Shown here: positions 6,494-54,251 of the stretch, in pieces | Numbering within the stretch: position 1 is the first letter of the stretch | How the letters are laid out: each line of letters starts with the position of its first letter | NCBI GenBank assembly: GCA_943359395.1 | Contig: CALRHH010000004.1 | Span: 1,699-65,698, forward strand | DNA length: 64,000 nucleotides | Origin: Candidatus Nomurabacteria bacterium | GTDB taxonomy: Bacteria; Patescibacteriota; Minisyncoccia; Phycocordibacterales; UBA2100 | Direction: 5' to 3' | Notes under the pieces: model-generated | What the model was told of the DNA's origin: nothing | The model's input: only the letters and a program-made list of their open reading frames with translations | Databases searched by the model: none | Translations under genes and position numbers: made by a program

Positions 6494-7477
6494 TTAACGC
6501 AGAATGAGGTCAGCAGTATCCGCTCGAAAATTATTGATGGCTGAGTGTATTGAGGCGGCATCTGCTGGACGTTGAGGATACGTACGGTTGGATAGGATGA
6601 CGAGCGCGATACCACGACGAAAATCGACAGCCACAGAGGTGCCTGTAAAACCTGTTTTCCCAAATGCCCCCTCGCTCCAACGTTCTCCCATGAACCACGC
6701 TTCTGCCTTTTGCCAGCCCAAGCCCCTTTGTCCCCCTTCGACGATAGCGGGGTGCACCCCTTGCAACAAACTCTCTAAAAAATGCAGGATGTCGGGAGCG
6801 GTGCTGAAAAGTCCTGCGTGGCCGACAGTTCGGCGCGCGCGCGAGAATACGCGCGCACTTTCATCGTGGACCACTCCGCAAATCTCTTCCCCTTCGATTA
6901 TTTCGGTCGGTGCACAATCAGAAGGCGACGGAAAGAAAGTCGTGCTTTCCATCTTAAGTGGTTCAAAAAAGTATCGGTGAGAAAGCTCCGCAAGAGAGCC
7001 GCCTCCTACTCGCTCCAGAACGAGGCCAAGAACATACGCCGGTAGATTCGTGTAGACTCTTTCTCCGGCAGGTCCGTCAAAACCATGCTCGAGGATATGC
7101 ATTCGTACCTCCTCACATGTTCGGTGCGACAATTCAGAGAGCCGTGTCCCACGGACTCGGTAAGTCAGGATGTCCTGGATAGTCGCTCCGTAGTCGTTTT
7201 GTAGTTCAGGTATGTAGTTCGTCACCTTGTCGGTAAGTTGCAACTTTTCTTCGGCAATGAAAGTCAGTGCAAGCGAGGCGACAGGAATGGATTTCGTGAC
7301 AGATGCAAGGTCGTAGACAGTATCTCCCACAACCTTCGGTGAATCCGGCTCGTAGGTAAGCTTTCCAAACGGAAACATCTCTCGGTCACCACTTTTCTTG
7401 ACGAAACCAATGACGCAACCTGGAAACACTTTTTCTCGTATCGCCTGCTCCGTACGACTTTGAATCTCGTTACGCAT
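6494..7477 (-). CDS. Serine hydrolase of the beta-lactamase / penicillin-binding-protein family.
   Basis: SVTKS (SxxK) motif and a YDLASVTK context typical of class C/DD-peptidase fold. Confidence 0.7.
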   Translation of the reverse strand: MRNEIQSRTEQAIREKVFPGCVIGFVKKSGDREMFPFGKLTYEPDSPKVVGDTVYDLASVTKSIPVASLALTFIAEEKLQLTDKVTNYIPELQNDYGATIQDILTYRVRGTRLSELSHRTCEEVRMHILEHGFDGPAGERVYTNLPAYVLGLVLERVGGGSLAELSHRYFFEPLKMESTTFFPSPSDCAPTEIIEGEEICGVVHDESARVFSRARRTVGHAGLFSTAPDILHFLESLLQGVHPAIVEGGQRGLGWQKAEAWFMGERWSEGAFGKTGFTGTSVAVDFRRGIALVILSNRTYPQRPADAASIHSAINNFRADTADLILR

Positions 7478-17373: not shown

Positions 17374-18888
17374 CTAGAGTCCTCCGAGCAACGCGTTCAG
17401 CTTCGCTCGTGTATTCGGACCAACGTAGCCGTATCCCGAGTCTCCTTTTTTCGCGATGCTGTATTTCACTTGGAATTTCTGTACGGCACGCGCAGTCGCC
17501 GGCCCGAAGTAGATCGTCTCACGTCCCAGAGAACCTACGCCGCTTGCCGCGACTTGCGTGCCCGCATCGGAATTGAGGATTTTCTGGAGCACCCGGACAT
17601 CTTCGCCGATTGTTCCCAAAGTAAGACCCCGTGCGAGCGGACGAGAAGAAAATTCCGACTCTACAATCGTTCCTTGCTCAGCCACCTTTTTGAGTACGTC
17701 CCAGATGGCGGGGTCCTGTCCGCCGTCGAGCTTGAATATCGAGACGCCGCGCACCCCGAGCTTCTTCGCGAGATCAATCTTCTGCTGGACCGATTGCGCA
17801 TCTGGCCAATCAAGGAGACGAAACCCGAGATGCGAATTGTACGTATCAGCGTACGCCGTGGCAGCAAGGGCAGCGAAAAGTGCCGATGTAGGACCGAGAG
17901 AGACGGGCGTGGTGCTCGTTGCAGCATTTGCAACATACGTGAAGTACATTTCCCCTGCCGTGTTACGTTGCGGTGTAATACCATACTGTGCGGCGATATC
18001 TGTCGCATACCGAGGATTGAATACCCAGAGGATACCGTACGAATATTCTTTGCCTTCATACGCCGTGACGTCATATTCGTAACCGTATGTCGGAACGCCG
18101 ATAAGTATTTTGCTTTTAGAAATATCTTTCATCATAAACCGGATGCTTTTTTCTACCCAAGCGGGGTCAGCAACCGGGGCGTAGAGTTGCGTAGAAGAAG
18201 CCGCTGTGGCCACAAGCTTGCGGTCGATGCCTTGCTGGTCGTAGGTCATAATACGTACTCTGTCACAGTACTTGTTGATTTCTTTCAGATCATTGGCGTA
18301 AACACCGGCATTCTCCGGAAGAGATGTCCCCCAATACTGATCTTCGAGCGGTGTACGAGACTCGACGGAACACATAATCATTTTGGAGCCCATGCGCATA
18401 TCCAGGCCCTTCAAAAAAGTGGAGAAGTGATCCTTGTCTTTTGCATACTTGCCCTCAAAGTCGATATCGATACCATCGTAGCCGCCCTCCTTCACAAGTG
18501 CGACGATACGGTCCTCAAGTGCAATACGTGACTTCTGATTGCTCAATAATTGGTGTAGGGTTTCTCCCCCACTCGACATAACGGTTGGAATGACACGAAC
18601 ATTTTTTGCCCTGGCAGTGGCGATAAACGAGAGCCAAGGCTCAGCCTCAAGCGCACCGTTGTCACGCAAGGTCCCGTCGTTGCGAATTGTGTAGACGAAC
18701 GGATTCACTTCTGTGAGCGTATCTAAATGGGGCAAGGTATCAGCCGTCCCCGTAGCGACGCGCCAGTATGGTATCCAGCCTGTCACTTCGAACGGTGCTT
18801 CCGTCGCGGCTGACGCCGTCAGAGGAACGGTAAAAACGAGTGCGCACAGAAAAACAAAAGAATTTCTCATACCCCGTGAGAGAAACAC
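17374..18888 (-). CDS. Secreted glycoside hydrolase family 18 (chitinase / peptidoglycan-hydrolase-like) with a C-terminal peptidoglycan-binding domain.
   Basis: GGYDGIDIDFE (DxxDxDxE) GH18 catalytic motif and a C-terminal VRVLQKILNSDAGTQV..ARAVQKFQ PG_binding_1-like repeat. The true start is more likely the ATG at 18871, which gives the signal peptide MRNSFVFLCALVFTVPLTASAA. A repeat element overlaps the region just upstream. Confidence 0.8.
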   Translation of the reverse strand: MFLSRGMRNSFVFLCALVFTVPLTASAATEAPFEVTGWIPYWRVATGTADTLPHLDTLTEVNPFVYTIRNDGTLRDNGALEAEPWLSFIATARAKNVRVIPTVMSSGGETLHQLLSNQKSRIALEDRIVALVKEGGYDGIDIDFEGKYAKDKDHFSTFLKGLDMRMGSKMIMCSVESRTPLEDQYWGTSLPENAGVYANDLKEINKYCDRVRIMTYDQQGIDRKLVATAASSTQLYAPVADPAWVEKSIRFMMKDISKSKILIGVPTYGYEYDVTAYEGKEYSYGILWVFNPRYATDIAAQYGITPQRNTAGEMYFTYVANAATSTTPVSLGPTSALFAALAATAYADTYNSHLGFRLLDWPDAQSVQQKIDLAKKLGVRGVSIFKLDGGQDPAIWDVLKKVAEQGTIVESEFSSRPLARGLTLGTIGEDVRVLQKILNSDAGTQVAASGVGSLGRETIYFGPATARAVQKFQVKYSIAKKGDSGYGYVGPNTRAKLNALLGGL

Positions 18889-18970
18889 GCCGAACGATTC
18901 AGCCGAAAACTTGGTGTATTCAACAGTATATGTGTATCAAGCATATAAATTTGATTCTCTCATGGGGTCA
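18870..18970. repeat. Inverted pair of the family-1 motif at and upstream of the GH18 start.
   Basis: ATACCCCGTGAGAGA at 18870..18884 and TCTCTCATGGGGT at 18956..18968. Confidence 0.7.
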
Positions 18971-19113
18971 CACCCCTTTGACGTATCAGTGTAACAAAAG
19001 TTACGGGCAACGTAGAACGGACGAGGTGAGAGTGCGAAGTATTTGTACTTCCGGACCGGAGAGCACGCGGAAATCGAAGATTCTTTGCCGGCTATGAAGA
19101 AATATTCCGGTCT

Positions 19114-19815: not shown

Positions 19816-21564
19816 TTACTGCACTTGGAACATCAGTGTCTGGCTTGTGCCTTGACCGTTTGTTACGTAGAGCGGATACGAACCCGGTGTAACCTGCTGC
19901 GCGACGAGGGTGCAGTACGTGCCTGGCATCGTGTCACACGGAGAACTATACGCGGGAATGGTGTAGTACATGGTTGTGCCATTGTTGAAGGAAGGCACAT
20001 GGAGTGTGCCGCCCTGACCGAAGTGTACGGTGTTGTCGAGTGCGTTGAATCCTGTTCCCTGTAACATCACCTGTGTGCCGACACGACCTGATGTTGGCGT
20101 GAGATACGAGAGCGAGACGTTGCCGTAAGTACCCGAGCCCGAAACAAAAACGGTGGCGCTCGAAGTATTCTGCTGGCCCGCGCTGTTAGCCACCCTGAAT
20201 GTCACCGTATAGGTGCCCGCCGCATTGTACGTGTGGGTGAAGGTTAATGTGTTTGTGCCTTGCGCGTATGTGGTTTGCGGAGCAGATAGTCCCAAGTACC
20301 CCTCGTCGCCCCACGTCACGGATGTCGTCATGTACGCGTTGCCCTGGTTGTTGACCGTGATGGTCCAAGTGCCGAGAGTGCCGAGAGTGAGAGATGTCGG
20401 ACCATTCACGCTCGTGATAGTCGGAGCTCCGTAGGAACCTATAGATGTCACGTTGAACGGAACAGCATTACTTGTCTGGCCGCTGAACGACGAGACCGAT
20501 ACGTTGTATGAACCGATTGTGACGACCTGAGAAGAATACCCGGAGAGTGACGACGGGACGATGAATGACAAGGTACGACCGTCGGTAGAGTTCAAACCAG
20601 TGATAACACCGCCACCGAAGTGGACGGTATTGCCGGTCGGGCTGAATCCGGAACCATACACCGTTACCATAGAACCAACTGCGCCAGAAGTAGGATTGAG
20701 ATACGCGATGTACGGAGCATTTACGTTTGGCGGGCAATACGAAGTCGCGTTGTACGTGCCATAGGTGTACGGGTAGTTACATGCCGAGTAGCTTGCAATG
20801 ACAGTGAACGTAAGTGTGTTGCTCGTACCGCGCGAATTGGTGACGTAGACGCCAACTCCACCGGGGAGAACGCCTCCTGGGATTGTGACGGTGAGCGACG
20901 ATCCGTTGGATGATGGAACGCTCGCCACTGGTTGGCTACCGAAGTACACCGTGTTGTTTAAATAATCGAGATTCGTTCCGTAAATGGTGATGTTTGTACC
21001 CGGCTCACCGGAGACTGGGGAAATAGAGCTCAGCGAAACGCCATACCCGTAGTTGTACGTGTTACAGGTGTACGGATACGTGTTGTAACAATTTGAGTTG
21101 CCGTAGTTGTTATAATTATAATTATTTCCGTAGGCGTACGCTGGGAGAGCCGAGTACGTGAACGGATTGGTGTTGTAATTGTAGTTGTTGTACCCGATAG
21201 AACCACCGCATGTCACCCGCGAAATAGCGGCACGAGTCGCGGCATCAACAACCCCGGTAACCGGGAGGTTTTGCTCTGTCTGGAAATTCCTAACAGCCGT
21301 AAGGGTTGCCGTTCTGTAATTTCCCGTAATCATCCAACTGCCGCCACCTGGGTAATTGCGGCTGACGAGGAAGGTCTGAAGCTGACGCACTTGACTTCCA
21401 TTTGAACCATACAAGAGGTCACTCAGGAGGTTAACGCAGGCACCCACGTAGGGCTGTGTGTAAGTTGAGCCATATGAATAGGTCGGATAATAGCTCTGAG
21501 CAGAGGCTACATTGGCCCCAAGGGCTACGACGGCCACGAGTGAGGAAACAATGACTTTGTTCAT
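19816..21564 (-). CDS. Secreted surface protein with an N-terminal peptidoglycan-binding domain, an N/Y-rich linker and at least four IPT/TIG-like Ig-fold repeats.
   Basis: Signal peptide; QVRQLQTFLVSRNYPGG...TGNYRTATLTAVRNFQ (PG_binding_1); an NYNYN low-complexity stretch; and repeated SISPVSGEPGTNITIYGTNL / LNPTSGAVGSMVTVYGSGF / LTPTSGRVGTQVMLQGTGFN motifs. Confidence 0.6.
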   Translation of the reverse strand: MNKVIVSSLVAVVALGANVASAQSYYPTYSYGSTYTQPYVGACVNLLSDLLYGSNGSQVRQLQTFLVSRNYPGGGSWMITGNYRTATLTAVRNFQTEQNLPVTGVVDAATRAAISRVTCGGSIGYNNYNYNTNPFTYSALPAYAYGNNYNYNNYGNSNCYNTYPYTCNTYNYGYGVSLSSISPVSGEPGTNITIYGTNLDYLNNTVYFGSQPVASVPSSNGSSLTVTIPGGVLPGGVGVYVTNSRGTSNTLTFTVIASYSACNYPYTYGTYNATSYCPPNVNAPYIAYLNPTSGAVGSMVTVYGSGFSPTGNTVHFGGGVITGLNSTDGRTLSFIVPSSLSGYSSQVVTIGSYNVSVSSFSGQTSNAVPFNVTSIGSYGAPTITSVNGPTSLTLGTLGTWTITVNNQGNAYMTTSVTWGDEGYLGLSAPQTTYAQGTNTLTFTHTYNAAGTYTVTFRVANSAGQQNTSSATVFVSGSGTYGNVSLSYLTPTSGRVGTQVMLQGTGFNALDNTVHFGQGGTLHVPSFNNGTTMYYTIPAYSSPCDTMPGTYCTLVAQQVTPGSYPLYVTNGQGTSQTLMFQVQ

Positions 21565-21779
21565 AAATATGTTAAAAATATGGCTTAAAGCCTTGACTAT
21601 CTACTAATATCAGGGGCTAATACAGCCACTATGCAACAAGATGCTTTTTTATGCAAGCTCCCGCTTTTCTTACGGTTTTACTGTTAGAAATAGCGCAGTC
21701 CCTTGGGGATTCCCTGTTTGTCCGCGTGTTGCGCGGTTACAAACAGCAATCCTGTATGGGCTCTCTTCTTTTTCGAGTT

Positions 21780-22664
21780 TTATGACCGAGAAAGCTTCGA
21801 ATTATCGGTCAGGAGCAAAACGCCAAGAAGAAACGGGGGCAGAGAGGCAAGCTGCCAAATGTTTGGAAGCTGATGTAGGATAATCCATGCCAGTACCAAG
21901 GTCACTAGAGGCGTAATGCTCACGAGTGCGCTCGCTTTTGTCACAGATACTCGGTGAATGCCCTCAATCCAGAGCATCTTTTCAAATCCAAGAAAAACTA
22001 CCCCGTTCAAGAGAAGGAGCGGCAACGCCGCCGATACACCACCCACCGTACCACTGACGTTAAAAAAATACAAAAATGCAAATAAAACTATCGCGGACAG
22101 CGCGCTGCGTAAAAACATGATGCTATCGCTTGAAGCAATTTTGCGAGCCTTCTGTTGGAAATAATTCCCGAACGGTGCGATAAAGGTCGCACAAAGAATA
22201 AATACATCTCCCGCGTTTATACCTCCGAAGTCACGTCCGAGAATGATGAGAGCGCCGGCAATCATGAGAGCGGCCCCCAGTATATGTGCCGGTAAGATGC
22301 CCTCCTTGCGATAGATATTAAAAAAGACGAAGGATGTGCATATTTGAAAGAGAATAATGATGGAAACATTGCCCGGCGTCGAATATTTGAGACCGGAAAA
22401 ATAGAGGCCGTAAAAGAGTATCCCGATAAAAAAAGTGATGAGGGCACCGTATTTCCACAAGAGTGGATTCCGAAGCTCCATCCAGTGTTTACGATATGTG
22501 ATCAAGCATGCGAAAAAGGTAGCCGCAAACAACGTACTCCACGCAAGTGAAACGAAATTAGAGACCTGCGTATAGGTAAGGGTAACCCCGATGGGGAGAA
22601 AACCTCCGAGTGTCGCGGCTGAAAGTACGTAGAGATCCCCCTTCCGCGTCTCGGACCAGGTCAT
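21780..22664 (-). CDS. EamA/DMT-family transporter.
   Basis: About ten TM helices with two-lobed EamA-like organisation. Confidence 0.55.
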   Translation of the reverse strand: MTWSETRKGDLYVLSAATLGGFLPIGVTLTYTQVSNFVSLAWSTLFAATFFACLITYRKHWMELRNPLLWKYGALITFFIGILFYGLYFSGLKYSTPGNVSIIILFQICTSFVFFNIYRKEGILPAHILGAALMIAGALIILGRDFGGINAGDVFILCATFIAPFGNYFQQKARKIASSDSIMFLRSALSAIVLFAFLYFFNVSGTVGGVSAALPLLLLNGVVFLGFEKMLWIEGIHRVSVTKASALVSITPLVTLVLAWIILHQLPNIWQLASLPPFLLGVLLLTDNSKLSRS

Positions 22665-22671
22665 CGGGCAA

Positions 22672-22775
22672 GTATACCCCGTGAGATATGGACGATTTCA
22701 CGGCGAGGGAACCATGAACGCTCTGCAATTCAAGAAAGTCTACCAAAAGATAGCGTGTCTATCTCATGGGGTATA
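22672..22775. repeat. Inverted pair of the family-1 motif upstream of the EamA transporter start.
   Basis: GTATACCCCGTGAGATA at 22672..22688 and TATCTCATGGGGTATA at 22760..22775. Confidence 0.8.
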
Positions 22776-22781
22776 TCAACG

Positions 22782-24101
22782 CTAACGTGAGAAGCGGCGT
22801 GGGCCTCGTGATGGGCCGCGAGACGATGGACGCGATGATGAAGAGCGGCGTGGGCGACTTCCGAAGCCGGAACCTCCTCTTGGAGTAAAACCTCCCGGTT
22901 GCGGACGAGAAAATCTTCGTGGTCGGTCGTCATTGACATACGGCTGAGCTGCGCGAGCAGGCGGAAGTGCGGGCAGTACTGAGATGGGAACGGTTTTCCG
23001 GATAAGGTATTCAATATCGCGTATCTCGCGTTTCTGATGCGGTTCGGCAAAGGATATTGCGTGGCCTTCGGCACCTGCGCGCGCGGTGCGGCCGATACGG
23101 TGGACGTAATCGGAGGTGTCCATCGGCAGGTCGTAATTGATGACAAGTTCTATTCCCTTCACGTCGATACCGCGCGAAGCGATATCGGTCGCGACCAGCA
23201 CACGATATTTTCCATTCTTAAATCCTTCCAATGCTTCGCGCCGCTGCGAGAGAGAGCGATTTCCGTGAATCTCTGCGGCAGTGTGCCCCATCGATGCGAC
23301 AGTGCGCATGATGCGCTTCGCGCCGTGCTTGGTTCGGGAGAAGACGAGCGTCGAACCCGCGTAATCGCCGAGAACCTTTTCTAACAAACGTGCCTTGTCT
23401 TCCTTGCGCACGATGAAAAATTCCTGAGTGACTTTTGCCACCGTCGTGCCCGCAGGTGCGACCTCGATGCGCAACGGCAGCGTCATGTGCTGCGTCGCGA
23501 GTTGCATAATTTCTTTTGAGAGCGTTGCCGAGAATAGCATCGTCTGGCGCTTTGTGGGGGCTGCCGCGATTATTTTCTTCACTTGCGGCCAGAAGCCCAT
23601 GTCGAGCATACGGTCTGCTTCGTCGAGAATGAGGACCTCTACCATGTCGAGCTTAAGAGTCTTTTGGGCAAGGTGGTCGAGCAAACGGCCGGGAGTTGCA
23701 ATAATGACGTGTGGGTCACGACGGAGCGAAGAAATCTGCATACCCATTGAAGCGCCTCCGATGAATACGGTGGTGCGAAGACCGAGCGGTCGCGCAAGTT
23801 TTGAGAGTGTCTCATCTACTTGCAGTGCAAGCTCGCGCGTAGGCACGAGAATGAGTCCCCGACCGGTTCCTGCCGCCAGTCGCTGGAGGAGCGGGATGCC
23901 AAACGCAAGTGTTTTGCCCGTACCTGTCTGGGCAACGCCGACAACATCCTTACCTGCGACTCCCTCGGGAATGGCACGGTATTGGATGGGTGTCGGTGTA
24001 GTGAAATTGAGCTTCCCGAGTATATCTAAAATGTTCGGTGAAATGCCGAGACCATTGAACGTATGCTCCGACATAGGCGGAGTGGAAGGTGTTGGAGTCA
24101 T
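22782..24101 (-). CDS. DEAD-box ATP-dependent RNA helicase with a C-terminal RGG/S-rich tail.
   Basis: Q-motif, AQTGTGKT, DEAD, SAT and HRIGRTARAG motifs. Confidence 0.9.
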   Translation of the reverse strand: MTPTPSTPPMSEHTFNGLGISPNILDILGKLNFTTPTPIQYRAIPEGVAGKDVVGVAQTGTGKTLAFGIPLLQRLAAGTGRGLILVPTRELALQVDETLSKLARPLGLRTTVFIGGASMGMQISSLRRDPHVIIATPGRLLDHLAQKTLKLDMVEVLILDEADRMLDMGFWPQVKKIIAAAPTKRQTMLFSATLSKEIMQLATQHMTLPLRIEVAPAGTTVAKVTQEFFIVRKEDKARLLEKVLGDYAGSTLVFSRTKHGAKRIMRTVASMGHTAAEIHGNRSLSQRREALEGFKNGKYRVLVATDIASRGIDVKGIELVINYDLPMDTSDYVHRIGRTARAGAEGHAISFAEPHQKREIRDIEYLIRKTVPISVLPALPPARAAQPYVNDDRPRRFSRPQPGGFTPRGGSGFGSRPRRSSSSRPSSRGPSRGPRRFSR

Positions 24102-25391: not shown

Positions 25392-26414
25392 TTAGACGTT
25401 CAAAACCGGACTAATAATCCCCGCCGTAGCAAGGGCATTTGTAAGATTGAGAAGCGCCAACATAATAACGATGATTCCTGCCGTCTTGAAAAATATCCCC
25501 TTCCACGGCTTGTGCGCGATATTGAGTGAGCCGAATGAAAGGAGCGCGAGCATCGGAAATGTGCCGAGTGCAAAAACAGACATCGTCATGGCACCTTGCA
25601 TGAAGCTTCCTGTCGAGAGTGCGTAGAGTTGCATGGATTGGGTAAATCCGCAGGGGAGGAAGAACGTCCCGATGCCGACGAGAACTGGTGCGAGGTAATG
25701 GTCGTGCCTGCTCCCCCGCACGACGTGTCGCGAGAGCCCTGCGGGCATCGTAATTTGGAGTCGTTTTGTGAAATGAAATATATCGAGCAGATTGATGCCG
25801 AGAACGAACATTACGAGAGCGACTACGATGCCGAGTACCACATTGGCGGTGAGCCCGAGATGGAAGGAGCTTCCAATCAATCCAATAACACCGCCGAGTA
25901 CGAAGAAACCACCGAGTCTGCCCACATGGAAGAGCGTCTGCGTCCGCCACGTACCCCCTTCTTTTGCAGAGCTTGCAGAGAGTGACAACACAAGTCCGCC
26001 AACGATGGCGAGACACGAGGAAACCGAGGCAATGAGTCCGATGACGAATGCCGTCCCATAGCTCACATTCGAACTCGTAATGAGATTCGCGAGCCCCGCT
26101 TTTTGCAGCGCGATAAATCCCGCAATAAGTACGAGCGCGATAGGAAGCGCATACACGAAATCCCCCCATCCGGCATTTTTTTGCTGTTTTTCAACAGAGA
26201 TAGTGTACCCGTGACTTTTAACAAGCGCCGTCAGCTGTTCGGCTATTGCCTCGGGTGCGTCAGCCAAATCTCCCGTAATGCTCACCTGGTGGTTCGCGAG
26301 AGACGCTCTCACATCGGAGACGTGCGGCAACTCTTTGAATGTTTCTTCTATAAGAAGGGTGCACGCTTTGCAGTGCATGCCGCTCACGTGGAACATGTAT
26401 CTCTCATTGTTCAT
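25392..26414 (-). CDS. Heavy-metal-associated (HMA) domain fused to a DsbD_2/CcdA-like polytopic membrane domain.
   Basis: MFHVSGMHCKACTLLIEE (GMxCxxC), then TM helices containing SVSSCLAIVGG and FFLPCGFTQS cysteine motifs. Confidence 0.6.
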   Translation of the reverse strand: MNNERYMFHVSGMHCKACTLLIEETFKELPHVSDVRASLANHQVSITGDLADAPEAIAEQLTALVKSHGYTISVEKQQKNAGWGDFVYALPIALVLIAGFIALQKAGLANLITSSNVSYGTAFVIGLIASVSSCLAIVGGLVLSLSASSAKEGGTWRTQTLFHVGRLGGFFVLGGVIGLIGSSFHLGLTANVVLGIVVALVMFVLGINLLDIFHFTKRLQITMPAGLSRHVVRGSRHDHYLAPVLVGIGTFFLPCGFTQSMQLYALSTGSFMQGAMTMSVFALGTFPMLALLSFGSLNIAHKPWKGIFFKTAGIIVIMLALLNLTNALATAGIISPVLNV

Positions 26415-28705
26415 ATCTTTTTTGTTTTAATCCGTAATGAGTTTCCGACGACTGACACGCTTGAAAACGCCATGGCAAATCCCGCGAATACCGGCGAGAG
26501 AAGCCAGCCGACGACGGGAAAGAAAATCCCACTGGCAAGCGGAATGCCGACGATATTGTAGAAGAATGCCCAGAAGAGGTTCTGTTTGATGCCGCGCATC
26601 GTCATTTTTGACAAACGCACAGCCATGACCAGTTTTGAAATATCGCCGTGCAATAAGGTAATACCTGCAGTTTCTATTGCCACATCGGTGCCCGTCGCCA
26701 TCGCAATGCCCACGTCTGCTTGTGCGAGCGCGGGGGCATCGTTCACGCCGTCGCCCGCCATTGCAACCACACTGCCTGCCGCTTGGAGATCCTTAATCTT
26801 ATTGAGTTTGTCCTCGGGCAATACTTCGGCGACGACTTCGTCAATGCCGACCGAGTCAGCAATAAATCGCGCCGTATTTTTATCGTCACCCGTAAGCATA
26901 ACGACCGAGATACCGAGCGCGTGCAAATCCCTCACGGCAACAACTGCTTCAGGCTTCACCTGATCGGCAACCATGATGACAGCGAGCGCTTTCCCGCTCG
27001 CGGCAAGAATGACGGGCGTCTTGCCTTCGGACGTGTCTTTTTCGAGTGAAGCGAATTCTGCTCCCAGCTCCCGCGCGAGCTTCTCGCTCCCGACGCGATA
27101 TTCCACACCGCCCACCTTACCGCCGAGCCCTTTTCCTTTTATTATCTCAAATTGTTCCACGGGCAGGAGCGCGACACTTTTCTCTTTCGCATAATTCACG
27201 ACCGCGTGCGCTATTGGGTGTTCGGACTTACTTTCCAGAGATGCGAGTATCGCAATAATGTCTGAGTCACGCTTGTCGGACAGGTTCTGTATGGATACGA
27301 GTTCCGGCTTGCCCCGCGTGATGGTGCCTGTCTTATCAACGAGAATGATGTTCACTTTGTGCAATTTTTCCAGTGTCGCCGCGTCTTTGACGAGGATTCC
27401 CTCTTTCGCTCCTTTGCCAACTCCTACGATTATCGCGGTTGGTGTCGCGAGCCCGAGCGCGCACGGGCACGCAATGACGAGCACGCCGACGAATGAGGTG
27501 AGGCCAAATGCAAACGCCTGCGCGAAGCCGAGATACTGCGAACCGATGACGAGCCACGCACCCAGCGCAAGAAACGCAATAACGAGTACGATGGGTACGA
27601 AAATACCGGAAATTTTGTCCGCAAGCGCCTGAATGGGCGCACGAGAGCCTTGAGCCTCCTCAACCATCTTCACGATGCGCGCGAGCATTGTTTCGGAGCC
27701 GACCTTCGTCGCCTTGAAGGTGAACGAACCGCTTGTATTAATAGTCCCTGCTACTACCGTATCCCCCGCCGACTTTTTTATCGGCATGGGCTCCCCCGTG
27801 ATCATCGATTCATCGACGTACGACGAGCCTTCGGTGAGCACTCCGTCCACTGGAATTCTCCCCGCAGGCTTAACGATGATAAGCTCCCCGTGAACGACCT
27901 TCTCAACGGGAATCTCTACTTCTTTGCCGTCGCGCACGACGAGCGCCGTCTTTGCCTGCAGATTCAAAAGCTTTTCTATCGCGTCGCCGGTCTTCACTTT
28001 TGCCTGCGCCTCGAGGTACTTGCCGAGCGCGATGAACGTAATGACGATAATGGTCACGTCAAAATAGACGCTGTCAACGTTGATGAACGTCCGCAGTGCG
28101 TCTTCAAATGATATAACGACGACGCTGTATATGAATGCCGCGAGCGTACCCATGCCGATAAGCGTGTCCATATTCGCCGCGCCGTAGCGCAAGAACCGGT
28201 AGAATCCGAGCAGATACGGCTTGCCGACGACGAAGAGCATGTAGGTCGCCATCAAGGGAAGCAAATGATGAAAAAATCCCTTCCACACATACGGGACAGT
28301 GGGAAGAATATTGAATTGGGCGAGGATTTCCCAACCCATCACGAATACACTGAAAACCGCCAAGGGAATGGCGGATGCCACCATGCGTTTCATCGCAGCT
28401 ATTTCGGCAAGCTTCTCGTCTTTTGATTGATTGAGGCCGAGGTGCGCCGCGTGTTCGCCCTCACTCATACCCATTGAGGCGGCAGTCGGCTGCGCCAGAG
28501 CCACGAGTGTATATCCAAGCGGTTCTACCTTTTGAGAGAGGTGGTTATGACCTGTCTTTGATTCATCAAAAGTGACCTTGGCGGTTTCCGTCCCGTAGTT
28601 CACCTGAATATCCTGCACGCCATCCACTTTCTTGAGCGTTTTCTCAATAATGCTTGCGCACGACGCACAGTGCATACCTTTTACCCTGTACGTGTGGTGT
28701 GCCAT
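26411..28705 (-). CDS. copA: Copper-translocating P1B-type ATPase.
   Basis: MHCASCASIIE metal-binding domain, CPCALGLATP, DKTGTIT, and GDGVNDAPAL. Confidence 0.95.
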   Translation of the reverse strand: MAHHTYRVKGMHCASCASIIEKTLKKVDGVQDIQVNYGTETAKVTFDESKTGHNHLSQKVEPLGYTLVALAQPTAASMGMSEGEHAAHLGLNQSKDEKLAEIAAMKRMVASAIPLAVFSVFVMGWEILAQFNILPTVPYVWKGFFHHLLPLMATYMLFVVGKPYLLGFYRFLRYGAANMDTLIGMGTLAAFIYSVVVISFEDALRTFINVDSVYFDVTIIVITFIALGKYLEAQAKVKTGDAIEKLLNLQAKTALVVRDGKEVEIPVEKVVHGELIIVKPAGRIPVDGVLTEGSSYVDESMITGEPMPIKKSAGDTVVAGTINTSGSFTFKATKVGSETMLARIVKMVEEAQGSRAPIQALADKISGIFVPIVLVIAFLALGAWLVIGSQYLGFAQAFAFGLTSFVGVLVIACPCALGLATPTAIIVGVGKGAKEGILVKDAATLEKLHKVNIILVDKTGTITRGKPELVSIQNLSDKRDSDIIAILASLESKSEHPIAHAVVNYAKEKSVALLPVEQFEIIKGKGLGGKVGGVEYRVGSEKLARELGAEFASLEKDTSEGKTPVILAASGKALAVIMVADQVKPEAVVAVRDLHALGISVVMLTGDDKNTARFIADSVGIDEVVAEVLPEDKLNKIKDLQAAGSVVAMAGDGVNDAPALAQADVGIAMATGTDVAIETAGITLLHGDISKLVMAVRLSKMTMRGIKQNLFWAFFYNIVGIPLASGIFFPVVGWLLSPVFAGFAMAFSSVSVVGNSLRIKTKKI

Positions 28706-28706
28706 A

Positions 28707-29021
28707 TTACTTGCGCTTGAGCTTGTAGACCGTTAGTACTTCACCGATAGCCTTTTTTGCGTCCCCGCTTTGTATCTGCTTCACGACGCACGTCGAGAGA
28801 TGGTTCTCCAGTATCATATTTTCCACATTTGATAGCCCCTGCTTCACCGCCGACGTTTGTGTAATGACATCCACACAATATGTGTCTTTCGCTATCATGT
28901 CCTGAAGTCCCCGGATCTGCCCTTCGATTATTTTGAGCCGACGGACAATCTTTCCCGTAGCAGCACCATGTGCGTGTCCCATATGCGCAGGAGTATATAC
29001 CCCCCTGGGGGTATCTGTCAA
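28707..29021 (-). CDS. csoR: CsoR/RcnR-family metal-sensing transcriptional repressor.
   Basis: DUF156 fold with a KIVRRLKIIEGQIRGLQDMI helix and conserved C/H/C ligands (YCVDV..H..STC). Confidence 0.8.
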   Translation of the reverse strand: MTDTPRGVYTPAHMGHAHGAATGKIVRRLKIIEGQIRGLQDMIAKDTYCVDVITQTSAVKQGLSNVENMILENHLSTCVVKQIQSGDAKKAIGEVLTVYKLKRK

Positions 29022-30673: not shown

Positions 30674-30741
30674 GTATACCCCGTGAGATAAACACTTCCA
30701 CCTTTTACTGTGGTTCGGACATTCCTATCTCACGGGGTATA
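30674..30741. repeat. Inverted pair of the family-1 motif GTATACCCCGTGAGATA with a 35-nt spacer, upstream of the AI-2E transporter start.
   Basis: GTATACCCCGTGAGATA at 30674..30690 and its exact reverse complement TATCTCACGGGGTATA at 30726..30741. Confidence 0.8.
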
Positions 30742-51292: not shown

Positions 51293-51943
51293 CTATTGCT
51301 GTCCTACGCCGTCATCGACCCAGCGATACATATTCTCCGAAATGGTGAATGAACGCTCTTGAATAGGTCCGGTCTGCCATGTGACGGTCACCGTAACACG
51401 TATCTCGTCCATGCTCCCCGTCACCTGGTAGGCGTGTAGAGTCCGCGTGAAATATGTCGGTGTCCACGCACCCAGGTCATCGCCAAGCCCCGGATAGCCG
51501 TACAGAGTCAGGTTTGTCTGAAGTGGCGGACATGTTCCATTGCACCGAACGATGGCGGTCGACGCGTCTCCCTTGCGACCATCGATTGTAAACGGCTCAT
51601 TGAGTCGAGGAATGAGTCCGAAGATGTCCGGTGCCCCTTCAGCACTTCCCGCGATAACGAGAATTTGGGAATCTCGAATACTGCGCACAGCCTCGATTGC
51701 CTCCTGTGCAAGGTAGAAAGCCGTTATTTGGTCTCGCGCATAGTACGCAGAACCGAGACTTTTCGACGCGAGAGCCATCGGAGACACCACCGCGACAGAC
51801 AAGAGCATCACCGCGACAAGCGTCTCGATGAGAGTAAAACCAGCTTGTAGCTTGTAGCTTGTAGCTGACAGAGGCCAGAATCTTCTGAATTTTTTGCTTA
51901 CTACAAGCTGTAAGCTGTAAGCTGTAAGCTTGAATTCCATCAT
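51293..51943 (-). CDS. Type IV pilin-like protein (pseudopilin) with a long leader.
   Basis: KLQAG|FTLIETLVAV prepilin motif. The leader contains a heptamer inverted repeat. Confidence 0.7.
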   Translation of the reverse strand: MMEFKLTAYSLQLVVSKKFRRFWPLSATSYKLQAGFTLIETLVAVMLLSVAVVSPMALASKSLGSAYYARDQITAFYLAQEAIEAVRSIRDSQILVIAGSAEGAPDIFGLIPRLNEPFTIDGRKGDASTAIVRCNGTCPPLQTNLTLYGYPGLGDDLGAWTPTYFTRTLHAYQVTGSMDEIRVTVTVTWQTGPIQERSFTISENMYRWVDDGVGQQ

Positions 51944-52648: not shown

Positions 52649-53344
52649 CTATTGTGAAGTCTCCCTTTGTACTGATATCTGACCGTTTGCCCCGACTATC
52701 ACACTCATGACATCGCCGCGGGGGGAGAGGAGAATAATTCGAGCGCTTTCAGCGCAAATGCCAGCGCCATAGACACATCCCACTCCGTTTGCACTTATCC
52801 ACGCGTCCGCCTCGGGACGTTTAAAAACAATGTCGAGCTCTGAGGCCGGGCTCACTCCCACGCAGGTAGCGGCGTCAGCTCCCTCAGGAGCGCAGAGACC
52901 GGATATTCTGTAACCATTACGAATAGTATACGGTGACGGAGAAACGTTCTCGTCGGGTGAATCGAAGAAGCCGTCCTTGTCGACATCCGCAAAAAGTTCG
53001 TAATGCAATGGGTCGTCGATATTGAAGTGCATACCGTACCCGGAGGAAAAATTTCCCGCCCCGTATCTCTGAACAGAGATGCCGAATACCTGCGCTTGCC
53101 GGACTGAAAGCGCCACATCGTAGGCCAGATTTTCAAGTTGTACAATTCCACCAAAGCGATTGTTGTTGACCAGCACTACGGACGTCACGACGATAATAAT
53201 CCCCGTCACGACTACGAGCTCGACCAAAGTAAACCCCGTTAGAGAGGCCCTTCGGGGTGCACGAGAAACCAAACCGTTTTTCTCTAACGGGGTAAAAGCC
53301 CGAAGACGTGAGAGGTGTCTATGCCGTAGAGTGATACGAACCAT
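52649..53344 (-). CDS. Type IV pilin-like protein (pseudopilin). The start is uncertain: the ORF extends to 53557, candidate starts are the ATG at 53344 and a TTG at 53252.
   Basis: RRASLTG|FTLVELVVVTG prepilin motif. The long ORF extension overlaps pilD and is unlikely to be translated. Confidence 0.6.
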   Translation of the reverse strand: MVRITLRHRHLSRLRAFTPLEKNGLVSRAPRRASLTGFTLVELVVVTGIIIVVTSVVLVNNNRFGGIVQLENLAYDVALSVRQAQVFGISVQRYGAGNFSSGYGMHFNIDDPLHYELFADVDKDGFFDSPDENVSPSPYTIRNGYRISGLCAPEGADAATCVGVSPASELDIVFKRPEADAWISANGVGCVYGAGICAESARIILLSPRGDVMSVIVGANGQISVQRETSQ

Positions 53345-54189
53345 ATGATGATGCAACTTAGAATGAGAAACGGACCAAATGGAATCTCGCTTTTCATTGT
53401 AAACCCTCCGCGGGGCTTTCCGCGCGAAGTTATCCCAAGTGTGTACAGCGCTTCTGCAATGTGCGGCAAAGGTAGAAGTATGAGTATGGACACGATGGCA
53501 CCCACGACAAATGCTCCGAAGACGGCAAGCAAGCCGAGAGCGGGACCGAGTAACCACCCGATGCCGAGGGCAAGCTTAGCATCCCCCAATCCCATCCATC
53601 TCCCACGGGAGAACAGCCACAAAGCAAAAAGTGGTGCGGCGACAACAGGTCCCGCAAAGATGAACCACAACAATGTGTACTCGTCCGAGAACGGCTGTAA
53701 AAATTGAGAAACGAATGCGAGTCCGGCGAACGCGTACACCCACTCGTCGGGGATTATCGTGTGTAATATATCGTAAGTGGTAATACATACGAAAACGGCA
53801 AGAACGCAAAGGTGTATGAGGATGAGCGCAACTCCGGGCAATGATAGACCGAGGGATGAGGAGCCAACCCAGAAACCCAAGAGTCCGAAAAGGAGTCCTG
53901 TCGCGGCCTCGACAAGCGGATACTGAACAGAGACGCGGCCTCGACACGCCCGGCATCTTCCTCCGAGCTCCAACCACGAGAAAACGGGTATCATGTCGTA
54001 CCATCGAAGTTGCGTGCCACAGCTCATACATCCACTTCGGCCGTTGAGAGAGCGAGCCCCGTGGCGCAGAATGACGACGTTGAGAAAACTCCCGACGATA
54101 AGGCCAAGAAGTCCGAAGAGAAGTCCGAAGCTCATTGGCTCACAGTATACCCCGTGGGATAAACGCATCAGCGAGACGAAGAGAATCAT
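53284..54189 (-). CDS. pilD: Prepilin peptidase (A24 family); the true start is probably the ATG at 54135.
   Basis: CMSCGTQLRWYDMIPVFSWLELGGRCRACRG zinc motif and a polytopic peptidase domain with catalytic aspartates. The N-terminal ORF extension overlaps a repeat element. Confidence 0.85.
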   Translation of the reverse strand: MILFVSLMRLSHGVYCEPMSFGLLFGLLGLIVGSFLNVVILRHGARSLNGRSGCMSCGTQLRWYDMIPVFSWLELGGRCRACRGRVSVQYPLVEAATGLLFGLLGFWVGSSSLGLSLPGVALILIHLCVLAVFVCITTYDILHTIIPDEWVYAFAGLAFVSQFLQPFSDEYTLLWFIFAGPVVAAPLFALWLFSRGRWMGLGDAKLALGIGWLLGPALGLLAVFGAFVVGAIVSILILLPLPHIAEALYTLGITSRGKPRGGFTMKSEIPFGPFLILSCIIIWFVSLYGIDTSHVFGLLPR

Positions 54190-54251
54190 ATCCTCATGAC
54201 GAACCTGGTGCGTCTAAGATACATCCACATTTCCTATCCCATGGGGTATAC
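54145..54251. repeat. Inverted pair of the family-1 motif upstream of pilD.
   Basis: GTATACCCCGTGGGATA at 54145..54161 and TATCCCATGGGGTATAC at 54235..54251. Confidence 0.75.

What the first reader, a model, noticed from the sequence alone, without database searches (positions are those of the whole stretch)
22672..22775. Second locus of the family-1 inverted pair, upstream of the EamA transporter
GTATACCCCGTGAGATA at 22672..22688 and TATCTCATGGGGTATA at 22760..22775 flank 71 nt of unrelated sequence between the helicase stop and the EamA start. The proximal copy ends 7 nt before the ATG. It carries the same G/A asymmetry as the other loci.
Basis: seen in the sequence. Interest (0 to 1): 0.6.

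Follow-up and report, generated by a model that had tools for sequence, protein, structure and literature searches.

The report
Tiny foldback transposon in a promoter
The inverted pair upstream of the EamA gene is the two ends of a 95-bp gene-less mobile element inserted into the TATA of that gene's promoter; the same ends flank a tiny GIY-YIG nuclease gene in related ultra-small (Patescibacteria) bacteria, suggesting a transposon family not found described in the library searched.

Summary

**What the pair is.** It is not a locus-specific regulatory hairpin. It is TATA + 12-nt terminal inverted repeat (CCCCRTGAGATA) + 71 nt of unique DNA + inverted repeat + TATA.

**Evidence for insertion.**
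- The closest EamA orthologues (74-77% aa) keep the helicase-EamA junction but have only 'TGaTATACT-6 nt-ATG' there. The window carries a 99-bp insertion in the -10 box, with TATA duplicated.
- Loci A and D are also empty in relatives.
- Non-palindromic flanks elsewhere are direct repeats (6 against 1).
- The extended -10 'TGn' remnant sits exactly outside the distal arm in 20 of 55 elements.

**Distribution.** The family occurs across many Paceibacteria genomes. It lies mostly in -10 boxes of leaderless genes of unrelated function, with interiors of 8-13, about 35 or about 72 nt that share no sequence.

**Partner gene.** All eight related ~80-aa GIY-YIG nuclease genes examined are bounded by these same repeats.

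**Closest known.** MITEs/REPINs and the Ssn (GIY-YIG)/NTS system. The published Ssn repeat motif is absent.

**Open points.** The nuclease's role in mobility is inferred. So is the reason the arms stay intact while neutral sites saturate.

The parts
22673..22676 (.). Proximal copy of the duplicated target TATA. It forms the first four bases of the EamA -10 hexamer.
   Evidence: orthologues have a single TATA here; the outer 4 nt of arms behave as direct repeats (target-site duplication).
22677..22688 (-). Gene-proximal 12-nt terminal inverted repeat (minus strand TATCTCACGGGG, C-form).
22689..22759 (.). 71-nt interior, unique to this copy, with no coding capacity and no conserved structure.
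   Evidence: 77 interiors compared all against all show no similarity above shuffles; no other copy in the window or fetched loci; only the arms form a strong stem.
22760..22771 (+). Gene-distal 12-nt terminal inverted repeat (TATCTCATGGGG, T-form).
22772..22775 (.). Distal copy of the duplicated target TATA.
22776..22778 (-). Stranded 'TGa' of the original extended -10 motif (minus strand TGA directly 5' of the distal TATA).
   Evidence: orthologue L134 has tgTTGATATACT. TG sits at exactly this offset in 20 of 55 elements, against 1-6 at other offsets.
22671..22676 (-). Rebuilt -10 hexamer TATACT of the EamA gene, 6 nt upstream of the ATG (leaderless arrangement).
   Evidence: gene starts peak 8 nt after the 16-mer; ordinary promoters of this genome are TGnTAnnnT + 6-7 nt + ATG. 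T at position -7 in 47 of 55 proximal arms.
21780..22664 (-). EamA-family transporter gene downstream of the element.
   Evidence: (PF00892, E 6e-31).
22782..24101 (-). DEAD-box helicase gene. Its stop codon lies 6 nt from the distal TATA, with no separate terminator between.
18868..18971 (.). Sister copy A. A variant (TCTCTCAYGGGG) with a 72-nt interior, inserted at T[G/A]TGA overlapping the GH18 start codon.
   Evidence: L146 and L147 are empty at this site.
30675..30741 (.). Sister copy C. 35-nt interior, symmetric ends, in the -10 of the AI-2E transporter gene.
   Evidence: L147 keeps both arms, L146 and L148 keep decayed arms..
54146..54250 (.). Sister copy D. 73-nt interior with both arms carrying the same T-to-C change, in the -10 of the prepilin peptidase gene.
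   Evidence: L149 and L150 are empty, showing terminator + TATACT + 6 nt + ATG.
53230..53296 (.). Divergent copy E (TCTCTAACGGGG arms, 35-nt interior, TTTA/TAAA direct-repeat flanks). It overlaps the peptidase stop codon and the leader of the next pilin-like gene.

Best explanation
**What it is.** Window 22673-22775 is one copy of a family of very small, non-autonomous foldback transposable elements (MITE/REPIN-like).
- The element proper is 95 bp: a 12-nt terminal inverted repeat CCCC[G/A]TGAGATA, 71 nt of copy-specific DNA, and the inverted repeat.
- It is flanked by a 4-bp duplication of its target, TATA.

**Where it landed.** It inserted into the TATA of the -10 box of the leaderless EamA promoter, ancestrally ...TAG cgTTGA TATACT tgcccg ATG.
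- Because the target is duplicated, a complete TATACT hexamer at the correct 6-nt distance from the ATG is rebuilt next to the gene, now preceded by the element's terminal GGGG.
- The original 'TGn' extension is stranded 99 bp upstream.
- So the insertion is tolerated, and probably retunes rather than kills the promoter.

**Likely partner.** The same inverted repeats bound an ~80-aa single-domain GIY-YIG nuclease gene in related genomes, forming units of about 280-300 bp.
- That gene is the only protein these units encode.
- Different repeat variants accompany different nuclease lineages.
- I therefore infer that this nuclease recognises the repeats, most likely as a hairpin in single-stranded or melted DNA. 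The inference rests on analogy with the Ssn GIY-YIG ssDNA nucleases and on a weak sequence match to SLX1.
- I also infer that it drives or maintains the gene-less copies.

**Shown:** insertion polymorphism, target duplication, -10 targeting, and the nuclease-repeat association.

**Inferred:**
- that the nuclease is the mobilising enzyme;
- that hairpin or ssDNA is the recognised form;
- that promoter melting explains the TATA preference;
- the effect on EamA expression.
For: **Not chance.** 7 hits against 0.01 expected.

**Empty orthologous sites.**
- Locus B: L134, L135 and L136 (74-77% aa identity) have TAG + 18 nt including TG[a/t/g]TATACT + 6 nt + ATG. Removing CCCC..GGGG plus one TATA from the window gives the same 18-nt spacing.
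- Locus A: L146 and L147 are empty.
- Locus D: L149 and L150 are empty.
- An IMPDH-like gene promoter shows the converse. It is empty in the window (start at 33162) but filled in L089 and half-decayed in L036.

**Target-site duplication.**
- The outer 4 nt are TATA/TATA in 54 pairs.
- When non-palindromic, they are direct repeats in 6 cases (TGAA, TTCA, TCTA, TAAA x2, TTTA) and an inverted repeat in 1.
- TATGA|CCCC...GGGG|TATGA is found in L085.

**Promoter context.**
- 83 of 225 arms are followed by an ORF start 4-15 nt away. The mode is 8 nt, and 74 of those 83 starts are ATG.
- The -7 T is kept only in gene-proximal arms.
- 'TGn' lies exactly 5' of the distal TATA in 20 of 55 elements, against 1-6 at other offsets.
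- The genome's normal promoters are TGnTAnnnT + 6-7 nt + ATG.

**Geometry.** 104 outward-facing pairs against 8 of the opposite orientation. Spacers cluster at 8-13, 33-39 and 66-77 nt.

**Not a regulon.** The 85 downstream proteins hit 96 Pfam families.

**Subfamilies.** Size class correlates with end symmetry, and T/T ends occur in 0 of 95 elements.

**Arrays.** Arrays sharing the 4-nt junction occur in L025, L067, L085 and L111.

**Nuclease link.**
- The three largest pairs (260-291 nt interiors) each hold a GIY-YIG ORF.
- Five further homologues chosen by protein similarity alone are all bounded by the same repeats, making 8 of 8.
- A CTAAC-variant repeat and a 'family-X' repeat accompany more distant homologues.
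- Residues at the positions of the GIY-YIG signature motif (Y3, Y5, Y14-x-G16, R24, E48) are invariant in 28 homologues.
Against: - Interiors of the 35- and 72-nt classes share no sequence, even within one genome. This is atypical for a MITE family expanded by copying.
- No known transposase fold is present. GIY-YIG enzymes hydrolyse DNA and are not known to perform strand transfer, so how a 4-bp duplication arises is unexplained.
- Arms are intact at an orthologous site although four-fold sites are saturated. At locus C, window against L147, four-fold identity is 0.42. Simple selfish decay does not predict this, and it suggests an added host-level or nuclease-dependent constraint.
- Two nuclease copies (L152, L157) lack a target duplication and sit at a conserved position next to RNase P RNA. 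They look resident rather than mobile.
- The window itself contains no nuclease gene.
- The direction of the event (gain or precise loss) rests on parsimony.
Confidence: 0.75

Rival explanations
1. The two 16-mers are operators for a DNA-binding regulator. One operator overlaps the -10 box and an auxiliary one lies upstream, and the pair represses or activates a large regulon by looping.
For: - The proximal arm covers positions -24 to -9 of the promoter.
- Arms are kept intact at the orthologous AI-2E promoter while neutral sites are saturated.
- Arms are identical upstream of orthologous genes in different genomes.
- When only one arm survives in Patescibacteria, it is usually the gene-proximal one, about 13 against 3. 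This count carries an ascertainment caveat.
Against: - The site is empty in the nearest relatives at loci A, B and D.
- Flanks are direct repeats.
- Downstream genes have no common function.
- The arms form arrays and occur inside coding DNA.
- The arms bound a nuclease gene.
- Spacings of 51 and 88 bp centre to centre are out of helical phase with each other.
- This reading can be true only as a secondary use of a mobile sequence.
Confidence: 0.12
2. The pair forms a functional RNA hairpin, such as a terminator or stabiliser of the helicase mRNA, or a translational regulator of EamA. The G/A asymmetry would then reflect G-U pairing on one strand.
For: - A 16-bp stem is predicted on both strands, with z-scores of -2.5 to -5.6.
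- Both arms carry the same changes at loci A, D and E.
- At locus B there is no separate terminator after the helicase gene.
Against: - With a -10 box 6 nt from the ATG, the EamA transcript should start at the ATG, so the pair lies outside it.
- In many loci the upstream gene's own terminator precedes the distal arm.
- At the variable position the Watson-Crick A-U state never occurs, while the A.C mismatch is the commonest state.
- The orientation of the asymmetry relative to the gene is mixed.
- No Rfam family matches.
- Loops are unrelated in sequence and unstructured.
Confidence: 0.05
3. This rival concerns present-day function, not origin. The hairpins would serve the host as recognition sites for a single-strand-specific GIY-YIG nuclease that filters incoming DNA during natural transformation, as shown for NTS/SsnA in Neisseria. 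The elements would be kept for that reason, not because they still transpose.
For: - The architecture repeat-GIY-YIG-repeat plus many gene-less hairpins matches the Ssn/NTS description (PMC11893778).
- The window encodes a type IV pilus machinery: pilins, PilC-like protein and prepilin peptidase.
- DprA and DNA-transfer genes are among the downstream genes.
- Arms are conserved in place.
- Two nuclease copies sit at a conserved chromosomal position.
Against: - The published SRM motif has no hit in the window or at any of the eight nuclease loci.
- The arms are not self-contained hairpins; only the pair folds.
- This reading does not explain the preference for -10 boxes or the target duplications.
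- No biochemical data exist for these proteins.
Confidence: 0.2

Closest known systems
MITEs with promoter-bearing ends, e.g. Neisseria Correia elements (review PMC10969869)
   Same: - Short, gene-less units bounded by terminal inverted repeats and flanked by a target duplication.
- Mostly found just upstream of genes.
- The element end contributes to a sigma-70-type promoter for the neighbouring gene.
- Presence and absence differ between related genomes.
   Different: - The repeats here are only 12 nt.
- The duplication is 4 bp (TATA preferred). That Correia elements duplicate TA is my recollection, not a tested point.
- Interiors are unrelated between copies.
- The insertion rebuilds an existing -10 box instead of bringing a new promoter.
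- The likely partner gene is a GIY-YIG nuclease, not a DDE transposase.
REPIN-RAYT systems (PMC3116915; bioRxiv 10.1101/2021.07.10.451892)
   Same: - Two inverted short repeats form a hairpin of about 60-110 nt with a less conserved loop.
- Many gene-less copies accompany one small partner gene flanked by the same repeats.
- There are signs of long vertical persistence, and clusters or arrays occur.
   Different: - Each arm here is not itself a palindrome.
- A 4-bp target duplication is present, whereas Y1/IS200-type transposition makes none.
- The partner gene is GIY-YIG, not a Y1 tyrosine transposase. A Y1_Tnp gene was seen next to one copy only (L157).
Ssn family GIY-YIG single-strand nucleases with NTS/SRM hairpin repeats (Chenal et al. 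2025, PMC11893778)
   Same: - A single-domain GIY-YIG protein of about 80-95 aa.
- Its gene is flanked on both sides by a repeat that also occurs in many gene-less copies.
- Repeat variants go with nuclease variants.
- The authors themselves note the IS-like layout.
   Different: - The SRM consensus is absent here.
- In Ssn systems whole hairpins flank the gene. Here the gene lies inside one hairpin, between two 12-nt arms.
- Neither target duplications nor Patescibacteria appear in the text of that paper.
- No promoter targeting was seen in the sections of that paper I read.
- Membership of cd10448 could not be tested.
- The nearest solved relative by sequence is UPF0213 BH0048.
piggyBac / IS1380-type elements (recalled from memory, not tested)
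   Same: - Ends begin with a run of C.
- There is a 4-5-bp duplication of an AT-rich target of TNNA type.
- Precise excision is known for piggyBac.
   Different: No DDE transposase was found with these repeats. The resemblance of the repeat to the piggyBac end is only a lead.

Membership tests
MITE (non-autonomous TIR element) | Terminal inverted repeats at both ends | tested here: met
   12-nt CCCCRTGAGATA / TATCTCAYGGGG, with conservation stopping sharply at the repeat.
MITE (non-autonomous TIR element) | Target-site duplication flanking the repeats | tested here: met
   TATA/TATA in 54 pairs. Six non-palindromic direct repeats against one inverted. TATGA x2 in L085.
MITE (non-autonomous TIR element) | Filled and empty orthologous sites | tested here: met
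   Locus B is empty in L134-L136. Locus A is empty in L146/L147. Locus D is empty in L149/L150. The IMPDH site is empty in the window and filled in L089.
MITE (non-autonomous TIR element) | Copies of one family share internal sequence | tested here: not met
   77 interiors compared all against all show nothing above shuffles except in tandem arrays. Only some short-class loops look alike.
MITE (non-autonomous TIR element) | A longer element with the same ends that encodes the mobilising enzyme | tested here: inconclusive
   8 of 8 GIY-YIG genes are bounded by the same repeats. GIY-YIG is not an established transposase, and no DDE or Y1 gene lies between such repeats.
REPIN-RAYT | Two inverted repeat units forming one hairpin, present in many copies | tested here: met
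REPIN-RAYT | Partner is a Y1 (RAYT) transposase flanked by the repeats; no target duplication | tested here: not met
   The partner is PF01541 GIY-YIG, and duplications are present.
Ssn nuclease / SRM repeat system | Single-domain GIY-YIG protein of about 90 aa whose gene is flanked on both sides by the repeat | tested here: met
Ssn nuclease / SRM repeat system | Repeat fits the SRM pattern HGTCWYN(0-2)YYVSBRHN(0-5)WNVSBRGN(0-2)RNCYNB | tested here: not met
   0 hits in the window and in all eight nuclease loci.
Ssn nuclease / SRM repeat system | Protein belongs to CDD family cd10448 | not testable with these tools
   No CDD search is available and the SsnA sequence is not held. The nearest solved sequence is UPF0213 BH0048, E 3e-7.
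Ssn nuclease / SRM repeat system | Site-specific cleavage of single-stranded DNA only | not testable with these tools
   Needs biochemistry.
Transcription-factor operator pair / regulon | Sites conserved at orthologous promoters and upstream of functionally related genes | tested here: not met
   Absent from orthologous EamA, GH18 and peptidase promoters. The 85 downstream proteins hit 96 Pfam families. Conserved only at the AI-2E promoter.
Curated RNA families (Rfam 15) | Match to a covariance model | tested here: not met
   Only tRNAs in the window at gathering score. Nothing relevant at E<=1 in 21540-22800.

The most novel reading that the evidence does not exclude
The ~80-aa GIY-YIG protein would itself be the mobilising enzyme of a roughly 280-300-bp autonomous element, made of 12-nt inverted repeats plus one leaderless gene driven by the repeat itself. 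To my knowledge that would be among the smallest self-contained DNA transposons, and a class of prokaryotic transposition that uses a GIY-YIG nuclease. It would act on hairpins in melted or single-stranded DNA and home to the melted TATA of -10 boxes. Its gene-less derivatives would have become fixed promoter modules across an order-level clade of Patescibacteria.
Probability: 0.3. Interest if true: 0.85.

Novelty: new variant of a known kind. Interest (0 to 1): 0.62.

Why it matters
- **Annotation.** It explains a conspicuous, near-invariant 16-mer that recurs across many Paceibacteria genomes and could be mistaken for a regulatory site or an RNA.
- **Mobility evidence.** It supplies direct comparative evidence that a repeat-plus-small-GIY-YIG system behaves as a mobile element: empty sites, target duplications, and repeat types that go with nuclease lineages. 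For the related Ssn/NTS systems this was only hypothesised.
- **Tolerated insertion.** It shows how an insertion can be tolerated in extremely compact genomes. By duplicating the TATA of a -10 box, it rebuilds the promoter of a leaderless gene.
- **Testable enzymology.** The proteins are 80 aa with a defined 12-nt recognition sequence, so the nuclease pairs are easy to test and may be useful as sequence- or structure-specific nucleases.

Tried and rejected
- **CsoR-type operator.** The window has a csoR-copA operon whose promoter carries a canonical ATACCCCCAGGGGGGTAT box, and the arm superficially resembles half of it. Rejected: the arms occur upstream of unrelated genes, and the box orientation differs.
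- **Mini-ORF (ATG-AGA-TAG) in the distal arm.** Not general. Many copies lack the stop codon or the ATG.
- **Alternative sigma-factor or phage-type promoter.** There is no conserved -35 region. The distal arms lack the -7 T.
- **DNA-uptake sequence.** This does not explain the fixed position relative to the ATG or the target duplications.
- **Integron attC, IS200/IS605, TA-duplicating (mariner/IS630-type) elements.** Rejected on the 4-bp direct repeats and on the 18-nt spacing of the empty site.
- **Interiors as captured spacers or copies of host DNA.** No match to other interiors, the window or the fetched loci.
- **Virus collection scan.** 14 single hits and no pairs, by my rough estimate no more than chance would give.
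- **Autonomous copy with a conventional transposase.** A search for arms 300-4000 nt apart found none. Genes next to arrays are housekeeping genes.
- **Literature.** Searches for the motif sequence, for promoter or leaderless motifs in Patescibacteria, and for MITEs in Patescibacteria returned nothing relevant.
- **Other.** One protein comparison failed on wrong coordinates. One BLAST listing was needlessly long.

Full report
**1. The observation**

On the + strand, GTATACCCCGTGAGATA lies at 22672-22688 and TATCTCATGGGGTATA at 22760-22775, 71 nt apart.

Both neighbouring genes run on the minus strand. A DEAD-box helicase ends at 22782, and an EamA transporter starts with ATG at 22664-22662.

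The 16-mer TATCTCAYGGGGTATA with up to 2 mismatches occurs 7 times in the window, against 0.01 expected. A search that did not presuppose the full motif found five inverted pairs:
- A: 18868/18956
- B: 22673/22760
- C: 30675/30726
- D: 54146/54235
- E: 53230/53281, a divergent copy

In each pair the GGGGTATA ends face outward.

**2. Context in this genome**

Read in the sense of the genes, the proximal arm is TATCTCACGGGGTATACT followed by 6-8 nt and the ATG.

A crude survey of the window's gene starts shows that ordinary promoters here are an extended -10 box (TGnTAnnnT) 6-7 nt from the ATG. That is the arrangement expected for leaderless mRNAs, with about 15 clear cases. The csoR promoter is TTGACA-18-TATACT-9-ATG. 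So the outer TATA of the proximal arm plus the next two bases is the -10 hexamer of the downstream gene.

**3. Distribution elsewhere**

- The great majority carry Patescibacteria-type labels such as Kaiser-, Nomura-, Campbell-, Zambryski- and Staskawicz-bacteria and 'Paceibacterota'.
- The hits from unrelated phyla are almost all single, unpaired copies, as expected for chance matches in 596 Gb.

In these loci:
- There are 104 outward-facing pairs against 8 of the opposite arrangement. Spacers cluster at 8-13, 33-39 and 66-77 nt.
- 83 of 225 arms are followed by an ORF start 4-15 nt away. The mode is 8 nt, and 74 of those 83 starts are ATG.
- Conservation stops sharply at the 16-mer.
- The following 'CT' (giving TATACT) is conserved only when a gene follows. 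There is no -35 element.
- The 85 downstream proteins hit 96 different Pfam families. This is not a functional regulon.

**4. The decisive comparison: orthologous sites**

*Locus B.* Three metagenome contigs encode EamA at 74-77% identity and keep the helicase-EamA junction.
- They show helicase stop TAG, then 18 nt such as tgTTGATATACTgtcccg, then ATG. There is no trace of the pair.
- The window reads TAG cgTTGA TATA [CCCCATGAGATA..71 nt..TATCTCACGGGG] TATA CT tgcccg ATG.
- Deleting the bracketed 95 bp and one TATA restores exactly the 18-nt orthologous structure.
- More distant EamA genes also lack the pair.

*Other loci.* The pattern repeats.
- Locus D is empty in two relatives, which show terminator, TATACT, 6 nt, ATG.
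- Locus A is empty in two relatives. There the duplicated target is T[G/A]TGA and includes the start codon.
- An IMPDH-like gene promoter is ordinary in the window but carries a pair in L089 and a half-decayed one in L036.

**5. Target duplication**

TATA is palindromic, so it cannot show whether the outer four bases belong to the inverted repeat or are a direct duplication. Copies with other flanks can.
- Six have non-palindromic direct repeats (TGAA, TTCA, TCTA, TAAA twice, TTTA). One has an inverted arrangement, and it lies in an array where partners are ambiguous.
- L085 has a perfect TATGA on both sides.
- The 'TG' of the extended -10 motif sits exactly at the expected offset outside the distal TATA in 20 of 55 oriented elements, against 1-6 at neighbouring offsets.
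- Arrays in which consecutive elements share the 4-nt junction (L025, L067, L085, L111) fit insertion next to an existing end.

The element is therefore CCCC...GGGG with 12-nt inverted repeats and a 4-bp (sometimes 5-bp) target duplication, with a strong preference for the TATA of -10 boxes.

**6. Subfamilies and the G/A asymmetry**

- At repeat position 5 the two ends are C/C, T/C or C/T, but never T/T: 0 of 55 oriented pairs, Fisher p = 3e-5, and 0 of 95 elements overall.
- Mixed ends dominate the 72-nt and short classes. Symmetric ends are slightly the more frequent type in the 35-nt class.
- The T-form end faces the gene in 16 cases and faces away in 23.

This is what unequal left and right ends of an element inserting in either orientation would give. 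It is the opposite of selection for base pairing, because the perfectly paired A-T state is the one that is missing.

**7. What does not fit a textbook MITE**

- Interiors are unrelated between copies and have no other copy in the window or loci.
- At the AI-2E promoter, the window and L147 (85% aa identity) share the insertion.
  - The interiors are about 51% identical by my hand alignment of the sequences shown, close to saturation.
  - Four-fold sites are 42% identical.
  - Both repeats and both TATAs are identical apart from the C/T position.
- In two other relatives the distal arm has decayed and the proximal arm partly survives.
- Orthologous genes in several genome pairs likewise keep exact arms with unalignable interiors.

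So the arms, above all the gene-proximal one, are under constraint in place. The cause is open. It could be use as part of the promoter, binding by the partner protein, or nuclease-dependent maintenance.

**8. The partner gene**

- The three largest pairs in the sample (260-291 nt between the arms, three different genomes) each enclose one ORF of 80-92 aa.
- That ORF is a GIY-YIG domain protein (PF01541, E 1e-12 to 1e-16).
- At least 1669 homologues of about 80 aa exist; those with source names are labelled as Patescibacteria lineages.
- Five homologues chosen by protein similarity alone (62-78% identity) are all bounded by the same repeats. The layout is CCCCGTGAGATA, 9-13 nt, start codon, then stop codon, 1 nt, TATCTCAYGGGG. 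That makes eight of eight.
- The inner end of the repeat reads TG-a-GATAAT 7-8 nt before the ATG in four of the eight copies (L151, L152, L153, L157). There it is an inward extended -10 promoter for the nuclease gene.
- More distant homologues carry other repeats. L047 carries the CTAAC variant seen at window locus E. L149 carries a 'family-X' repeat (CCCCTTACCACT).
- Gene-less family-X foldbacks occur in the same genome as L149 and, with a TATA duplication in a -10 box, in L087.
- Residues at the positions of the GIY-YIG signature motif are invariant in 28 homologues.
- The nearest solved relatives are UPF0213 BH0048 and, weakly, the structure-specific nuclease SLX1.

**9. Comparison with what is known**

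- *MITE.* The unit behaves like a MITE in its repeats, duplication, and filled and empty sites. It recalls Correia elements in contributing to promoters (PMC10969869).
- *REPIN-RAYT.* It resembles these systems in being a hairpin of two inverted repeats with a small partner gene flanked by the same repeats (PMC3116915). But it makes target duplications, and the partner is not a Y1 transposase.
- *Ssn family.* This is the closest described system: single-domain GIY-YIG nucleases that cut single-stranded DNA next to hairpin repeats (NTS/SRM). Those repeats flank the gene and occur in hundreds of copies. The authors point out the IS-like layout (PMC11893778). Their SRM pattern has no hit here. 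Their text mentions neither Patescibacteria nor duplications. Membership of their CDD family could not be tested.

I therefore file the finding as working like a MITE/REPIN with an Ssn-like partner, not as a member of any of these named families.

**10. Likely mechanism at this locus**

*Shown:* a 99-bp insertion (95-bp element plus 4-bp duplication) in the -10 TATA of the EamA promoter. It rebuilds TATACT at 6 nt from the ATG and strands the TGa 99 bp upstream.

*Inferred:*
- The new context GGGGTATACT keeps a G at position -14 and probably a working but altered promoter.
- Read-through from the helicase gene now carries a long hairpin.
- The nuclease recognises the folded arms. Transient melting of TATA in open promoter complexes may explain the target preference.

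**11. Verdict**

The implied locus-specific regulatory or RNA reading is not supported. The best explanation is a new variant of small foldback mobile elements associated with a GIY-YIG nuclease. Confidence is about 0.75 for the mobile-element reading and about 0.3 for the nuclease as the actual transposase.

Noticed in passing
window 26411-29021 (minus strand); promoter 28992-29021: A csoR-copA copper operon. Its promoter is TTGACA-18-TATACT, with a canonical CsoR-type box ATACCCCCAGGGGGGTAT in the spacer and the ATG 9 nt after the -10 box.
   Followed up: partly
window, e.g. gene starts at 932, 6387, 12330, 14032, 37527, 46211, 62290: Most recognisable promoters are extended -10 boxes (TGnTAnnnT) 6-7 nt from the start codon, with no Shine-Dalgarno sequence. 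The organism appears to use leaderless mRNAs as its norm.
   Followed up: partly
window 21565-21790 (minus strand), L146 18294-18412, L147 17048-17218: The roughly 100-nt leader of the PG_binding/TIG gene is well conserved in two relatives although four-fold sites are saturated (...gcttgcataaaaaa..cttgttgcat..tggctg.attagcc...). In the window and L147 it is preceded by a hairpin (ctgtttgtaaccgcgc..gcggacaaacag). No Rfam match. It may be an undescribed cis-regulatory RNA.
   Followed up: no
window 21780-22664 compared with L146 and L147: The EamA gene itself is missing from the otherwise syntenic helicase - PG_binding - DUF218 - GH18 block of two close relatives. Both the gene and its element are variable.
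   Followed up: no
window 53230-53296; L149 2310-2349: Copy E supplies the last codons and stop of the prepilin peptidase and the leader (..LTG|FTLVEL) of the next pilin-like gene. At the same site, L149 has a different 32-bp foldback (CCCCTTACCACTTTTTAAAAAGTGATAAGGGG) with the same TTTA flanks.
   Followed up: partly
L157 608-1020; L152 about 645-825: In a Zambryskibacteria and a Kaiserbacteria genome, the right repeat of the nuclease element abuts or overlaps the 5' part of the RNase P RNA gene (GGGG|AGGAAAGTCCGAAC). The RF00010 match in L157 scores 86.5 bits, E 2e-26. Neither copy has a target duplication. This looks like a resident copy at a conserved position.
   Followed up: partly
L086 about 6960-7160, L093, inside the GIY-YIG ORF: The nuclease gene contains its own 15-nt inverted repeat, CCCCAAGCAGTTTTA / TAAAACTGCTTGGGG. 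It encodes the conserved SPKQFY and KTAWGK motifs in reverse-complementary registers.
   Followed up: no
L089 4290-4360 (minus strand): The IMPDH-like gene carries about 66 extra nt near its 5' end, containing a palindrome GATATGAGAAAgaaTTTCTCATATC that interrupts the reading frame. This may be another small foldback insertion or an assembly error.
   Followed up: no
L111 2700-3300 (end of a 243-kb contig): A dense array of more than 12 arms with TGAA/TAAA/TTTA flanks and a scaffolding gap. Such clusters probably break assemblies.
   Followed up: partly
L156 317-700: A nuclease-bearing element sits just after the third codon of a TrwB/DUF87 coupling-protein gene and is preceded by a short-class element. 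TrwB-like genes are the most frequent neighbours of the family (4 of 85).
   Followed up: no
L146 6921-8344: A reverse transcriptase with a bAvd-like accessory gene (diversity-generating retroelement type) lies close to the AI-2E gene in a close relative and is absent from the window.
   Followed up: no
window 51841-51924: Inverted arrays of a 7-nt unit (CAGCTTGTAGCTTGTAGCTTGTAG / CTACAAGCTGTAAGCTGTAAGCTG) lie between two pilin-like genes.
   Followed up: no
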